This document shows positions 58,562 through 60,336 of a stretch of DNA of 64,000 nt, one piece after another (positions within the stretch are counted from its first letter, which is position 1; each line of letters begins with the position of its first letter). The position numbers and the translations under genes were made by a program. The stretch lies in IMG/VR virus record IMGVR_UViG_3300029705_000018, one strand, 5' to 3'. The notes beneath the pieces are model-generated. The model ran no database searches, was not told where the DNA came from, and saw nothing but the letters and a program-made list of their open reading frames with translations. Source of the stretch: a virus (taxonomy: Duplodnaviria; Heunggongvirae; Uroviricota; Caudoviricetes).

Positions 58562-58590
58562 ATTATATCAATTTTTTTTATGTAAGTCAA
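58562..58590 (-). promoter_or_regulatory. Consensus promoter TTGACT-N17-TATAAT (minus strand) upstream of the polymerase gene
   Basis: Reverse complement reads TTGACT tacataaaaaaaattga TATAAT. RBS AAGAGGA before the pol ATG at 58526. Confidence 0.7.
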
Positions 58591-59779
58591 TCTTTGGTGA
58601 CAATCACCAATTTCTCTGCCGCACGAGTGGCCGCAGTGTATAACCAACGAGCATGATCAACGGGCTGGAAGGGGAACTTTTCTTCCAGAACCAAGACGTT
58701 ATCCCATTCAGAACCCTGCGCTTTATGACAGGTAATGGCATATCCATAAGTAAATTCCTTTGGCACAACATCGCCAATACGATTTTTTAGCTTATTCAGC
58801 TTATACTTATCACGCCATTCAAGCTCGCTTTCGCCGCCCTTCATAATGCGAGGGTCCATATTGATATGACCATAATTCTCACCTAAGTCAGATTCAAATA
58901 CACCAGTAAGGATATTGATCTTACCCTTCTCATAAGCGTAAAACGGGACATTGATATGACTATACTTGGGATCATGTAATGTTCCAATAGTGCCATTTAC
59001 CAATGGGTCGCCGTTAGTCAAATTACCCCAGTCCCAGTAATTCCGCAGACAAATAACTTTATCTCCTTCTTCTGGCTCAGGTCCAAAACCTCGTTGCTGA
59101 CGCATGAAATCATTCATACTGTGCCGTTGTAGATTAGTCGCAACAAGAACCTGGTCTGCCCAATCAAGCATTCCGGTATTGAGCGCGCTGGCTGGATAAA
59201 TTTGAACTTGGTCATTCTTTATATATTCCAAAGGCTTCTGGTCTCGAATATCCATAGTCAAACGGATAATACCAGATTCAGTAGCCTGTCTCATAATTTC
59301 ATCAAGGAAGATATGAGGATGGTCAAGCAAATGATTATCCTCGTCTTTCTCAATGGGTGGCAACTGGAACGGGTCGCCAAGACAAATTACATATACATTA
59401 TGGGAGAATAATTTATCCATAATACTCTTGGGCGCCATGGACACCTCATCAACCACAACGACTGTATATTCCAAAGATTTCTTTGGGATTCTAGTAAATC
59501 CACCGCCTGGACGAGGCACGCTATCATAAAGCAGACGATGTAGAGTCATTGCGTTCTTATTGCCCTTCTTAGCTAGAACCTGGGCGGCCTTGCCTGTAAA
59601 AGTAGCAAAGCAAACTTTATTATGTTCTACATCTAATGCTTCAATGATAAATTTTACCAGAGTGCTCTTTCCTGTACCTGCCTTTAGGCGTAGCCAGCAA
59701 TCACAGTGTACTTTTCATGTGCTCTGTGTCTGGCTACGGCAATTTTCAAACCTTCTTCTTGCTTTCTTGTAAGAATCAC
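58587..59779 (-). CDS. Dda/RecD-like SF1 DNA helicase, interrupted. A 31-aa N-terminal ORF (59684..59779, GTG start) ends at a TAA. The Walker A motif onward (AGTGKST...DEVSM...GDPFQLPP...HKAQGSEWD) continues in the -1 frame, which has no start codon of its own.
   Basis: Hand translation around 59680-59720. The frames are consistent with one missing nucleotide near 59684-59690. Confidence 0.55.
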
Positions 59780-60336
59780 AGTTCTACTTCCTCTCTTTCT
59801 TCAATATTCAAATCTTCAATATTCCATAGATTATCATGTAGTTCTTTATGACAATTAGAACAAATTAAAATACATTTTTTACTTTCTTCTACTGCTTCTA
59901 ATAAGTGAAAATGGTCATTGCTAATTGTAAAATCTTTTTTAGAGGGGTCAATGTGATGAAATTCTAATGCTTTTATACATCTATCATATCCACATCTTAT
60001 ACATTTTCCACCACGAGATTCTTTTATTTTAGCTAAAAACATTCCTCTCGTTAATTGAACTCCATTTGGCATACAGTTATAACAACAGGTTCTTTGATGA
60101 GCCGTAGAAGTTAAAGGATAAAATTCTTTTCCACAAATGGGACAAATTTTTGGTTTTCCTTTATAAGAAGTATCTTTTTGATTCTTTTCTTTATTGGCGT
60201 ATTTTTCTCTGCGCGAAGCGTTTTGACATTCTATACTACAGTATTTTTTAGTAGAACGGATTGCCTCAAATTCATTTCCACACATAACACATTTATTTAT
60301 CATATATTTTCTCCTTTTTTGAAATATTTCTTTCAT
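59776..60336 (-). CDS. HNH endonuclease with N-terminal Zn-ribbon repeats, 186 aa
   Basis: C-terminal CIRCGYDR...LEFHHIDP...N...CSNCHKELH HNH motif. Several CxxC pairs. Confidence 0.75.
   Translation of the reverse strand: MKEIFQKRRKYMINKCVMCGNEFEAIRSTKKYCSIECQNASRREKYANKEKNQKDTSYKGKPKICPICGKEFYPLTSTAHQRTCCYNCMPNGVQLTRGMFLAKIKESRGGKCIRCGYDRCIKALEFHHIDPSKKDFTISNDHFHLLEAVEESKKCILICSNCHKELHDNLWNIEDLNIEEREEVEL

What the first reader, a model, noticed from the sequence alone, without database searches (positions are those of the whole stretch)
59661..59779. SF1 helicase gene disrupted at the Walker A motif: frameshift, pseudogene or assembly indel
A 31-aa ORF (GTG 59779 to TAA 59684; MILTRKQEEGLKIAVARHRAHEKYTVIAGYA) is in one frame. 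The Walker A motif and the rest of a Dda/RecD-like helicase continue in the -1 frame, which opens only after a TGA at 59715 and has no start codon. There is no canonical X_XXY_YYZ slippery heptamer. One added T near 59684-59686 would fuse the frames into ...VIAGYALKAGTGKSTLVKF.... The helicase is otherwise intact with motifs I to VI.
Basis: seen in the sequence. Interest (0 to 1): 0.5.

Follow-up and report, generated by a model that had tools for sequence, protein, structure and literature searches.

The report
Natural ribosome hop in phage helicase
The apparent break in this phage helicase gene is an 8-base stop-containing insert, delivered with a neighbouring homing-endonuclease gene and shared in 5-8 base versions by about 70 related phages, that ribosomes most likely hop over; natural hops of this kind have not been described.

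Summary
Intact relatives (394 aa) read YTVIAGYA-GTGKST, so the window carries 8 extra bases (TAAAGGCA, 59679-59686) between Ala31 (GCC) and Gly32 (GGT). About 70 related phage contigs from more than 30 metagenomes carry a 5-, 6-, 7- or 8-nt insert at exactly this codon boundary. It always follows GCC or GCT and begins with a stop codon (or an unused CGG). It always ends in GCN, GTN or ACY just before the resuming Gly codon. The downstream frame stays intact and under purifying selection, even in a clade where insert length changed between 5 and 6 nt. Insert-bearing alleles alone have a selected 8-bp mRNA stem ending at the take-off codon. An HNH endonuclease gene lies directly upstream in 25/53 insert-bearing loci and 0/64 intact loci, and near-identical phage pairs differ only by HNH gene + replaced helicase 5' end + insert. 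Best reading: a mobile cassette like T4 MobA/gene 60, with a short translational "stop-hop" (GCC to GCA, +8 nt) restoring the helicase. This rests on comparative inference; no protein data exist. I found no prior report.

The parts
59776..60336 (-). HNH homing-endonuclease gene (186 aa). Its TGA stop overlaps the helicase GTG start (GTGA).
   Evidence: PHROG HNH endonuclease families, best phrog_2255 at E=3e-23. The motif C-x2-C...EFHHI...LICSNCHKELH is visible in the sequence. About 70% nt identity to annotated HNH genes of other phages. No Pfam hit at E<=0.01. Homologues (54-73% aa) lie directly upstream of the helicase in 27 other insert-bearing loci and in no intact locus.
59687..59779 (-). 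Helicase ORF1: GTG start through Ala31, 31 codons, ending at the take-off codon.
   Evidence: It aligns with residues 1-31 of 394-aa intact relatives. A start codon about 31 codons upstream is present in 66/66 insert-bearing alleles.
59730..59737 (-). 5' arm of the conserved mRNA stem (GUAGCCAG, codons -17 to -15). It can extend to 59740.
59690..59697 (-). 3' arm of the stem (CUGGCUAC, codons -4 to -2), directly 5' of the take-off codon. It can extend imperfectly over 59687-59689.
   Evidence: All 8 pairs form in 41/66 insert-bearing alleles and 0/75 intact alleles. Exceptions have compensated or shifted stems. Best duplex median -16.8 vs -7.0 kcal/mol, p=2e-17. Synonymous-randomisation z -3.7 vs -0.14. 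Window fold -22.2 kcal/mol, z -2.6. 84.5% of cells paired vs 24-60% when slid.
59687..59689 (-). Proposed take-off codon GCC (Ala31).
   Evidence: The Ala codon is GCC or GCT in 66/66 insert-bearing alleles vs 39/76 intact alleles, p=4e-13. GCC is a minor Ala codon in the window, 159/1268.
59679..59686 (-). 8-nt coding gap TAAAGGCA. The stop TAA is at 59684-59686 and the proposed landing triplet GCA at 59679-59681.
   Evidence: Exactly these 8 bases are extra relative to the closest intact relative L254/P0001. The same rule holds in 34 distinct inserts: stop or unused CGG first, GCN/GTN/ACY last.
59661..59678 (-). Resume codon GGT (59676-59678) and the Walker A motif GTGKST.
   Evidence: Skipping the gap gives G-Y-A-G-T-G-K-S-T, as in all intact relatives. 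It aligns without a gap to RecD2 GGPGTGKST.
58587..59678 (-). Helicase ORF2: 363 codons plus a TGA stop, SF1B RecD/Dda-like helicase core.
   Evidence: 95% identical to P0001.
59630..59779 (-). Approximate tract of elevated divergence from the closest intact allele, taken as the cassette-derived or co-converted helicase 5' end.
   Evidence: Window vs L254: about 60-75% identity from the start codon to about 60 nt past the insert, then about 85-93%. The same pattern with sharper edges appears in L091/L211 and L086/L197. The boundary given here is approximate.

Best explanation
The helicase gene is interrupted by an 8-nt coding gap (TAAAGGCA) inside the Walker A coding sequence.

The gap is the right-hand end of a mobile cassette with three parts:
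(i) a free-standing HNH homing-endonuclease gene inserted just upstream of the helicase;
(ii) a replaced, recoded version of the first 31 helicase codons, which carries an mRNA stem-loop;
(iii) the mini-insert.

By analogy with T4 MobA/gene 60, the insert most likely breaks up the endonuclease's target in the conserved Walker A DNA. That would make cassette-bearing genomes immune while intact alleles are cut and converted (inferred).

The helicase is still made because ribosomes hop the gap, as follows:
1. Peptidyl-tRNA-Ala sits on GCC in the P site and the slow-to-decode UAA sits in the A site.
2. The anticodon lets go.
3. The mRNA slips forward 8 nt, possibly helped by the upstream stem re-forming behind the ribosome.
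4. The tRNA re-pairs with GCA.
5. Decoding resumes at GGU.
The product is the normal 394-aa protein with GYAGTGKST.

Shown here:
- the 8-nt difference from the family;
- the recurrence and grammar of the inserts;
- the integrity of the downstream frame and selection on it;
- the allele-specific stem;
- HNH linkage and cassette boundaries.

Inferred:
- the hop itself and its efficiency;
- the role of the stem;
- endonuclease activity and immunity.
For: 1. Intact relatives (78-95% aa identity) are 394 aa and read YTVIAGYA-GTGKSTLV. The skip-8 join gives 394 aa.

2. There are 67 non-redundant insert-bearing alleles plus 5 MAG contigs, with 34 distinct inserts, all 5-8 nt (26, 15, 13 and 13 alleles). 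First triplet: TAA 46, TGA 15, TAG 4, CGG 2. Last triplet: ACT 24, GCT 11, GTA 10, GCA 9, GTT 6, ACC 3, GCG 2, GTG 2.

3. A scan allowing any 1-30 nt insert found only these classes in the helicase context. It found no sense 3- or 6-nt insert.

4. CGG is essentially unused in the two stop-less loci: 1/126 and 0/66 Arg codons. This parallels the 'stop or hungry codon' reported at gene 60-type gaps.

5. Three different frame relationships occur at one site. A clade in which all 7 members carry an insert and none has HNH changed between TAACT, TGACT, TAAGTT and TAAGCT while dN/dS stayed 0.015-0.2 at dS up to about 1.

6. ORF2 is intact everywhere. Every premature stop is TAG, mostly aligned to Gln. 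ORF1 has a start codon in 66/66 alleles.

7. The take-off codon is GCY in 66/66 insert-bearing vs 39/76 intact alleles. The Gly codon at -3 is GGC in 64/66 vs 11/76.

8. The GGC belongs to an 8-bp stem specific to insert-bearing alleles, with compensatory and G·U changes.

9. An HNH gene lies upstream in 25/53 insert-bearing vs 0/64 intact loci, p=4e-11.

10. Near-identical pairs differ only by the HNH gene, a diverged ORF1 and the insert.

11. Insert-bearing and intact alleles are interleaved on the helicase tree.

12. Literature: MobA plus the 50-nt bypass is a mobile cassette and the bypass protects against MobA. Landing tolerates wobble and larger deviations. Pairing of exiting mRNA is proposed to drive forward bypassing. 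Synthetic stop-hops exist.
Against: - There is no protein, transcript or read-level evidence. The hop is inferred only from comparative genomics.
- The commonest landing triplet, ACT, mismatches tRNA-Ala at the first position.
- Synthetic stop-hops are described as low efficiency, so the yield may be small.
- Much of the between-allele divergence in ORF2 predates cassette acquisition, because the cassette is mobile.
- Covariation in the stem is modest in the fixed register. Three alleles have only a weak stem.
- The 3' arm lies inside the ribosome at take-off, so its mechanistic role is speculative.
- About half of insert-bearing loci have no HNH gene. Cleavage and immunity are untested.
- The statistics are not corrected for phylogeny.
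Confidence: 0.7

Rival explanations
1. Knock-out by a selfish element. The HNH cassette brings in a stop-containing insert that simply inactivates a dispensable helicase, and nothing decodes across it.
For: The cassette is clearly mobile and often recently acquired. T4 Dda is non-essential (own knowledge). There are no protein data.
Against: - ORF1 and ORF2 are intact in all alleles, about 70 in number.
- dN/dS is 0.015-0.2 in an HNH-less clade in which every member has an insert, with dS up to about 1.
- The insert obeys a tight grammar in 34 variants: true stop or unused codon first, Ala-like triplet last, 5-8 nt only.
- A selected stem-loop is maintained only in insert-bearing alleles.
None of this is expected for a dead gene.
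Confidence: 0.1
2. A different decoding route. In this reading the last triplet of the insert is itself decoded, or ORF2 is made separately. The options are stop readthrough for 6-nt inserts, +1 or -1 frameshifts for 7-nt and 5/8-nt inserts, sliding with A-site decoding of the last triplet as Ala/Val/Thr, or termination followed by reinitiation.
For: GCN, GTN and ACY all encode small residues (Ala, Val, Thr). The 6-nt class is in frame. The window's geometry is formally a -1 frame change.
Against: - No single such mechanism covers 5, 6, 7 and 8 nt at one site.
- No slippery sequence is present.
- Any of these would add 1-3 residues inside the P-loop. No intact family member has any extra residue there, and the unbiased scan found no sense insert.
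- Thr-type triplets are only ACY, although ACA is the commonest Thr codon in these genes.
- No start codon follows the stop, and GUG occurs only in the CGGTG type.
Confidence: 0.1
3. RNA-level repair. The 5-8 nt are removed from the transcript by editing or by cleavage and ligation guided by the stem-loop, so translation is conventional.
For: A conserved RNA structure abuts the insert. This cannot be excluded without transcript data.
Against: - No known system excises 5-8 nt from bacterial or phage mRNA.
- There is no Rfam match.
- The requirement for a stop or rare codon first and an Ala-like triplet last is a translational signature, not a splicing one.
Confidence: 0.04
4. Sequencing or assembly artefact, or a private recent mutation in this contig.
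For: Single-contig observations of frameshifts are often errors.
Against: Same-site inserts occur in about 70 alleles from IMG/VR, ENA, Logan, JGI and GTDB MAG assemblies made with different assemblers. They show lineage-specific variants and linked features. The lesion is 8 non-homopolymeric bases.
Confidence: 0.01

Closest known systems
Phage T4 gene 60 translational bypass with the MobA homing-endonuclease cassette
   Same: - An HNH-type free-standing endonuclease gene lies next to an essential-motif gene.
- A replaced 5' coding segment is followed, after a few dozen codons (46 in gene 60, 31 here), by a non-coding insert that begins with a stop or hungry codon.
- Take-off and landing triplets are matched.
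- The endonuclease is always found with the insert, while the insert often survives loss of the endonuclease.
- Related phages show presence/absence polymorphism.
[quoted passage not shown]
   Different: - The target gene is different (SF1B helicase Walker A, not the topoisomerase II large subunit). No homology of the elements was shown.
- The gap is 5-8 nt instead of 50 nt, and its length varies between relatives.
- There is no take-off (A-site) stem-loop and no room for an internal SD-like element.
- The host gene is not split in two by the endonuclease gene.
- Landing triplets are often only near-cognate.
- Nothing here has been tested experimentally.
Synthetic or adventitious 'stop-hops' in E. 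coli (matched codons flanking a stop, 9 nt specifying one amino acid; cited as B54 in PMC5009743)
   Same: The 6-nt class (for example GCT TAA GCT, GCT TAG GCT) has exactly this configuration. The hop is frame-independent, and a slow A-site codon is the trigger.
   Different: Those were engineered or overexpression cases of low efficiency, and the review states that no natural occurrences are known. Here the hop would be a conserved natural feature of an enzyme gene, with an associated stem-loop and hop lengths of +5 to +8.
Mitochondrial 'byps' of Magnusiomyces capitatus
   Same: These are short mobile inserts inside essential coding sequences that are bypassed in translation. The take-off is next to an undecodable codon, and deviations between take-off and landing triplets are tolerated.
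   Different: Byps are 27-55 nt GC-cluster-like elements. There are 81 per mitochondrial genome, in a eukaryotic organelle, with no endonuclease gene.
prfB (RF2) +1 programmed frameshift
   Same: The P-site tRNA slips forward when a stop codon occupies the A site, and an upstream mRNA element lies 3 nt before the shift codon (own knowledge).
   Different: prfB re-pairs on an overlapping codon (+1), uses a Shine-Dalgarno:rRNA interaction, and is autoregulatory. Here the re-pairing triplet does not overlap (+5 to +8), and the upstream element is an intramolecular stem.
SF1B helicases RecD2 (PDB 3e1s/3gp8), T4 Dda (3upu) and Bacteroides Pif1 (5fhd)
   Same: The hop-joined protein matches RecD2 at E=2e-17 and Dda at E=4e-9. 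The beta1 strand and Walker A align without a gap. Pfam AAA_30, AAA_19 and UvrD_C_2 all match.
   Different: The match covers only the motor core (394 aa) and is below 40% identical to any cultured-phage helicase.

Membership tests
Programmed translational bypassing / hopping | A non-coding gap interrupts a conserved ORF, and skipping it restores the family sequence and length. | tested here: met
   Skipping 8 nt gives 394 aa with GYAGTGKST, the same as 394-aa relatives.
Programmed translational bypassing / hopping | The take-off codon is followed by a slow-to-decode A-site codon (stop or rare codon). | tested here: met
   TAA, TGA or TAG in 65/67 alleles. The other two have CGG, which is essentially unused in those loci.
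Programmed translational bypassing / hopping | The landing triplet lies 5'-adjacent to the resume codon and can pair with the same peptidyl-tRNA. | tested here: inconclusive
   Window: GCC to GCA (both Ala). Family-wide: GCN in 22 alleles, GTN in 18, ACY in 27. All are within one transition of an Ala codon, but only GCN is cognate. tRNA identity cannot be tested here.
Programmed translational bypassing / hopping | Frame independence of coding resumption. | tested here: met
   5-, 6-, 7- and 8-nt gaps occur at one site. A 5-to-6 nt change happened within one clade under purifying selection.
Programmed translational bypassing / hopping | A single polypeptide spanning the gap is produced. | not testable with these tools
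   This needs mass spectrometry or reporter assays.
T4 gene 60-type bypass specifically | A take-off (A-site) stem-loop containing the take-off codon, a gap-internal SD-like element, and a gap of about 50 nt. | tested here: not met
   The gap is only 5-8 nt. No conserved structure lies 3' of the take-off codon. Only a 5' stem is conserved.
MobA/gene 60-type mobile cassette (homing endonuclease plus protective bypass insert) | The endonuclease gene is adjacent and strictly co-occurs with the insert, and the cassette is present or absent between near-identical genomes. | tested here: met
   HNH gene in 25/53 insert-bearing vs 0/64 intact loci. Pairs L091/L211, L086/L197 and L068/L223.
MobA/gene 60-type mobile cassette (homing endonuclease plus protective bypass insert) | The endonuclease cuts insert-less alleles and the insert confers immunity. 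| not testable with these tools
   Inferred only from the boundary of the converted tract at or just after the insert.
MobA/gene 60-type mobile cassette (homing endonuclease plus protective bypass insert) | Homology to MobA and insertion in the topoisomerase II large-subunit gene. | tested here: not met
   The target here is an SF1B helicase. Homology of the HNH protein to MobA itself was not tested.
HNH endonuclease | A beta-beta-alpha-metal HNH motif and a match to HNH family models. | tested here: met
   Several PHROG HNH families, best E=3e-23. The motif EFHHI...LICSNCHKELH is present. Pfam models gave no hit at E<=0.01.
SF1B RecD/Dda-like helicase | Walker A GxxxxGK[ST] after the beta1 strand, plus AAA_30 and UvrD_C_2 domains. 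| tested here: met
   Met only for the hop-joined sequence. The +1-nt repair would put Leu at the first Walker A position.
-1 programmed ribosomal frameshift | An X_XXY_YYZ slippery heptamer in the overlap, and a product collinear with homologues. | tested here: not met
   No heptamer is present. Any -1 shift product would replace or extend the conserved YTVIAGYA-GTGKST.

The most novel reading that the evidence does not exclude
This is the first natural, evolutionarily maintained family of short-range translational 'stop-hops'. Ribosomes skip 5-8 nt with only three signals: a stop or hungry codon, a near-cognate landing triplet, and a 5' stem-loop abutting the take-off codon. It is also a second, independent case in which a homing-endonuclease cassette protects its own genome by placing an untranslated insert inside the DNA encoding an invariant protein motif. 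The 34 natural insert variants amount to a ready-made mutational series for the rules of take-off and landing.
Probability: 0.6. Interest if true: 0.9.

Novelty: new variant of a known kind. Interest (0 to 1): 0.8.

Why it matters
Programmed bypassing has essentially one well-studied bacterial or phage example, T4 gene 60 and its homologues, plus yeast mitochondrial byps. Reviews say shorter counterparts were long presumed but that no natural stop-hop is known.

If the hop is real, it matters in four ways:
1. It would show that a very small signal set suffices for productive bypassing.
2. It offers dozens of natural variants, differing in hop length (+5 to +8), in cognate versus near-cognate landing triplet and in stop versus rare codon, for direct testing.
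3. It would generalise the link between homing endonucleases and bypass inserts from a single curiosity to a strategy.
4. It warns that gene callers systematically truncate or split such genes. Here they reported products of 320, 347 or 356 aa, so similar cases may be hidden as 'pseudogenes' in phage and metagenome annotations.

Tried and rejected
- **Nucleotide search against cultured phages:** the megablast search found nothing. The blastn (distant) search matched only the HNH core. The best protein match among cultured phages is 38% identical, so there is no isolate to work with.
- **Pfam on the upstream ORF:** no hit. PHROGs was needed.
- **First structure search:** RNAalifold on -60..+60 and MFE z-scores found nothing but a 3-bp hairpin. 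I had concluded there was no structure. The long-range stem was seen only later, from the synonymous-site pattern, and needed a register-free test.
- **Stop choice versus genetic code:** TAG-recoded lineages never use TAG as the insert's stop. This is not significant (0/13 against a background of 4/52, p about 0.35). I report it only as consistent.
- **dN/dS between alleles sharing an insert type:** partly confounded once the tree showed the cassette is mobile. I replaced it with clades in which every member has an insert.
- **Phage-encoded tRNA-Ala that might promote hopping:** none in the window or in 34 loci. Whole genomes were not available.
- **Other endonuclease genes in HNH-less loci:** the upstream ORFs show no nuclease motifs on reading the sequences; they were not run against family models.
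- **Rfam:** no match.
- **Two-piece helicase matches in cultured phages:** unrelated. BpSp is split at a different site, and the Rhizobium phage gene is a single CDS.
- **GTDB genomes:** only MAG-binned phage contigs, no isolates.
- **Literature:** searches found no description of this system. Subscription-only papers are not covered.
Full report
**1. The observation**

On the minus strand, a GTG at 59779-59777 opens a 31-codon ORF (MILTRKQEEGLKIAVARHRAHEKYTVIAGYA) that ends at TAA 59686-59684. GTGKST and 357 further codons follow in the -1 frame, down to TGA 58589-58587. That frame is closed upstream by TGA 59717-59715 and has no start codon before Met75. No X_XXY_YYZ heptamer lies in the overlap.

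**2. What the lesion really is**

A search of 5.8 billion proteins with a joined sequence returned many relatives of exactly 394 aa (78-95% identity). All read YTVIAGYA-GTGKSTLV.

A one-base repair would give 397 aa with GYALKAGTGKST. Skipping 8 nt gives 394 aa with the family sequence.

Alignment with the DNA of the closest intact relative (L254, encoding P0001, 95% aa) shows exactly TAAAGGCA (59686-59679) as extra bases between GCC and GGT. The joined protein matches AAA_30, AAA_19 and UvrD_C_2. It aligns without a gap through beta1 and Walker A with RecD2 (3e1s, E=2e-17) and also matches T4 Dda.

**3. It recurs**

Some database hits were 320-356 aa, and 320 aa is exactly the ATG-started remnant called in this window. 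Their contigs carry inserts at the same codon boundary:

| Contig | Junction |
|---|---|
| L002 | GCC TAA GTT GGT |
| L003 | GCC TGA GTT GGT |
| L033, L034 | GCC TAA CT GGA |
| L035 | GCC TAA GTA GGA |
| L028 (146-kb IMG/VR contig, helicase only 56% identical) | GCC TAA GTA GGA |

Pattern scans of IMG/VR found 22, 11, 12 and 10 contigs with stop-initiated inserts of 5, 6, 7 and 8 nt. A JGI scan added four contigs, and GTDB MAGs added five.

Those patterns forced a stop, so I repeated the scan allowing any insert of 1-30 nt. In the helicase context only 5-8 nt inserts appeared. The scan added TAG-initiated inserts and one stop-less type, GCC CGG TG GGT. All other hits were unrelated proteins. 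No sense insert of 3 or 6 nt exists in the family.

**4. The grammar of the inserts**

Among 67 non-redundant insert-bearing alleles, with 31 distinct inserts (34 with the MAGs):

| Feature | Counts |
|---|---|
| Length | 5 nt: 26; 6 nt: 15; 7 nt: 13; 8 nt: 13 |
| First triplet | TAA 46, TGA 15, TAG 4, CGG 2 |
| Last triplet (5' of the resuming GGN) | ACT 24, GCT 11, GTA 10, GCA 9, GTT 6, ACC 3, GCG 2, GTG 2 |

Every last triplet is an Ala codon or one transition away from one.

CGG is essentially unused in the two stop-less loci, at 1/126 and 0/66 Arg codons. This matches the 'stop or rare hungry codon' reported at the start of gene 60-type gaps.

The preceding Ala codon is GCC or GCT in 66/66 insert-bearing alleles against 39/76 intact alleles (p=4e-13). 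GCC is a minor codon in these phages.

Thr-type last triplets are only ACY, although ACA is the commonest Thr codon in these genes. This fits two-out-of-three pairing with a GGC anticodon better than it fits decoding of the triplet. That is suggestive, not proof.

**5. Is the interrupted gene still used?**

ORF1 has a start codon about 31 codons upstream in 66/66 insert-bearing alleles. ORF2 is open to its normal end in all of them. The only premature in-frame stops are TAG, mostly aligned with Gln, so those lineages are TAG-recoded phages.

My first dN/dS figures, for alleles sharing an insert type (0.015-0.12 at unsaturated dS), turned out to be partly confounded. A tree shows insert-bearing and intact alleles interleaved, including near-identical pairs.

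The cleaner test is a TAG-recoded clade of seven sampled alleles. All carry an insert and none has an HNH gene. The insert itself changed among TAACT, TGACT, TAAGTT and TAAGCT. dN/dS is 0.015-0.2 with dS up to about 1.

A change from 5 to 6 nt alters the frame relationship, yet the gene stays under purifying selection. Frame-independent hopping predicts this. A fixed frameshift, readthrough or a dead gene does not.

**6. A mobile cassette**

The ORF directly upstream (59776-60336) overlaps the helicase start at GTGA. It is an HNH endonuclease by PHROG models (E=3e-23) and by motif, though Pfam found nothing.

Homologues sit in the same position in 25 of 53 insert-bearing loci with enough flank, and in 0 of 64 intact loci (p=4e-11, uncorrected for phylogeny).

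In L091/L211 and L086/L197:

| Segment | Identity between the pair |
|---|---|
| Upstream flank | 95-100% |
| About 650-nt HNH gene | present only in the insert-bearing partner |
| The 93 nt of ORF1 | about 70-85% |
| Mini-insert | present only in the insert-bearing partner |
| Directly 3' of the insert | 93-100% |

In the window the diverged tract runs from the start codon to about 60 nt beyond the insert. HNH-less insert-bearing loci have ordinary small ORFs upstream, with no nuclease motifs on reading the sequences.

This is the pattern described for T4 MobA/gene 60. There, the endonuclease plus the bypass forms a mobile cassette, the bypass protects the DNA from MobA, and the bypass is retained in several phages that have lost the endonuclease. 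Cleavage of intact alleles and immunity of insert-bearing alleles are inferred here, not tested.

**7. An allele-specific mRNA stem-loop**

Codon entropy is the same in both allele classes downstream of the insert. Upstream, insert-bearing alleles are almost fixed for GCT GGC TAY GCY: the Gly codon is GGC in 64/66 against 11/76. They are also nearly fixed for GTA GCC AGA at codons -17 to -15.

ORF1 is much less diverged at synonymous sites than ORF2, even in the HNH-less clade (dS 0.17 against about 1.0).

The two blocks are reverse complements: GUAGCCAG (59737-59730) and CUGGCUAC (59697-59690).

| Measure | Insert-bearing | Intact |
|---|---|---|
| All 8 pairs form | 41/66 | 0/75 |
| At least 7 pairs form | 55/66 | 3/75 |
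| Median best-duplex energy, register-free (kcal/mol) | -16.8 | -7.0 (p=2e-17) |
| Mean z against synonymous-codon randomisation | -3.7 | -0.14 |
| Fraction with p<=0.05 in that test | 88% | 9% |

The apparent exceptions have shifted or compensated stems. Examples are GUAGCUUGCAA/UUGCAGGCUAC and AUAGCCGUUGA/UCAGCGGCUAU.

In the fixed register, 84.5% of cells pair against 24-60% when the partner is slid. Compensatory G-C to A-U changes occur. The two GGT exceptions are either compensated (L094) or form a G·U pair (L040). The G·U pairs fit only sense-strand RNA.

The window folds accordingly (-22.2 kcal/mol, z=-2.6). The helix can extend imperfectly over the take-off codon: G(-54) pairs with the third base of GCY in 39/40 alleles. 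That is a second possible reason for the GCY rule.

My first structure search missed this stem. There is no take-off stem-loop of the gene 60 kind, and no Rfam match.

In gene 60, pairing of mRNA as it leaves the ribosome has been proposed to drive forward bypassing. A similar pusher or backstop role here is a hypothesis. The 3' arm lies inside the ribosome at take-off.

**8. Mechanism proposed**

1. Peptidyl-tRNA-Ala sits on GCC (59689-59687) with UAA in the A site.
2. The anticodon dissociates.
3. The mRNA moves forward 8 nt.
4. The tRNA re-pairs with GCA (59681-59679).
5. Decoding resumes at GGU (59678-59676).

Eleven nucleotides thus specify one Ala, and the normal 394-aa helicase results.

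- **Shown:** sections 1-7.
- **Inferred:** the hop, its efficiency, the role of the stem, and the activity of the endonuclease.
- A low yield could suffice, by the 'savior indel plus low-level compensatory recoding' logic described in the review.

**9. Comparison with what is known, and novelty**

The closest system is T4 gene 60/MobA. The architecture and evolutionary behaviour are the same. The differences are the target gene, a gap of 5-8 nt instead of 50, the absence of an A-site stem-loop and of an internal SD-like element, and frequent near-cognate landing.

The 6-nt class has exactly the 'stop-hop' configuration known from synthetic constructs. The 2016 review states that no natural occurrences of such hops are known, and that shorter counterparts of gene 60 had long been presumed. 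A 2022 preprint states that no similar bypassing had been reported in other phages, apart from the gene 60 homologues it describes.

Four full-text searches found no description of this helicase system. The library does not cover most subscription journals.

I class it as a new variant of a known kind.

**10. Limits**

- All evidence is comparative. There are no read, transcript or protein data.
- The statistics treat related alleles as independent.
- The host is unknown. Contigs come from human-gut and ruminant metagenomes, and some are binned with Mollicutes, Clostridia or Bacilli MAGs.
- No cultured relative exists.

Noticed in passing
L003, L042, L044, L051, L052, L055, L057, L060, L063, L072, L083, L085, L092, L258, L262 (helicase ORF2); L002 positions ~130-140: Many relatives read TAG as a sense codon. 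In-frame TAGs in the helicase align mostly with Gln, and a small upstream ORF in L002 has TAG where L001 has CAA. The window's helicase has no internal TAG, and its long ORFs are intact under the standard code.
   Followed up: partly
window 59776-59800 (-) and L001 2667-2795, L002 61-176: The window's HNH ORF ends ...EEREEVEL*. That is the same tail as the ~42-aa small ORF preceding the helicase in HNH-less relatives. The HNH gene appears to sit inside or replace that small ORF while keeping its last codons, which overlap the helicase start.
   Followed up: partly
L103 and L117 (IMG/VR 3300032038_004034, 3300031993_003143): This is the stop-less variant of the insert: GCC CGG TG GGT. CGG is practically unused in these loci (0/66 and 1/126 Arg codons). 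Both loci have the HNH gene and a shifted but complementary upstream stem.
   Followed up: yes
L060, L062, L066 (TGACT inserts, no HNH): These alleles have only a weak upstream duplex (about -7 kcal/mol), yet ORF2 is intact and constrained (dN/dS 0.03 between L062 and L066). The stem may not be indispensable, or another pairing may substitute for it.
   Followed up: no
window 59679-59689 (-): In the window the take-off codon GCC can also pair with a GGC inside the gap (GCC-UAAA-GGC, a 3-bp hairpin in the MFE fold). GGC precedes the last base in several 7-8 nt inserts (TAAGGCA, TAAAGGCG, TGAAGGCA, TAACGGCA) but not in all.
   Followed up: no
L256 (Bacillus phage vB_BpuM-BpSp, KT895374.1 49545-51084): A Dda-like helicase is annotated as two CDS (155 and 252 aa) separated by about 320 nt, at a different position from the Walker A site. 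It may be an intron or another mobile insertion.
   Followed up: no
window ~59830-60010 (-): The HNH core shares about 70% nucleotide identity with HNH genes in Lak megaphages (Prevotella), Yersinia phage fHe-Yen9-04, Klebsiella jumbo phages and a crAss-like phage. This HNH lineage is therefore widely spread among large phages.
   Followed up: no
proteins P0045, P0046, P0067, P0074, P0087; P0042, P0065 not checked: Gene callers report the interrupted helicases as 320- or 356-aa products that start at internal Met or Val codons. The database clusters hold up to 52 members, so such interrupted genes are common and are systematically mis-annotated. The 347-aa entries P0042 and P0065 may be the same, but their DNA was not examined.
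   Followed up: partly
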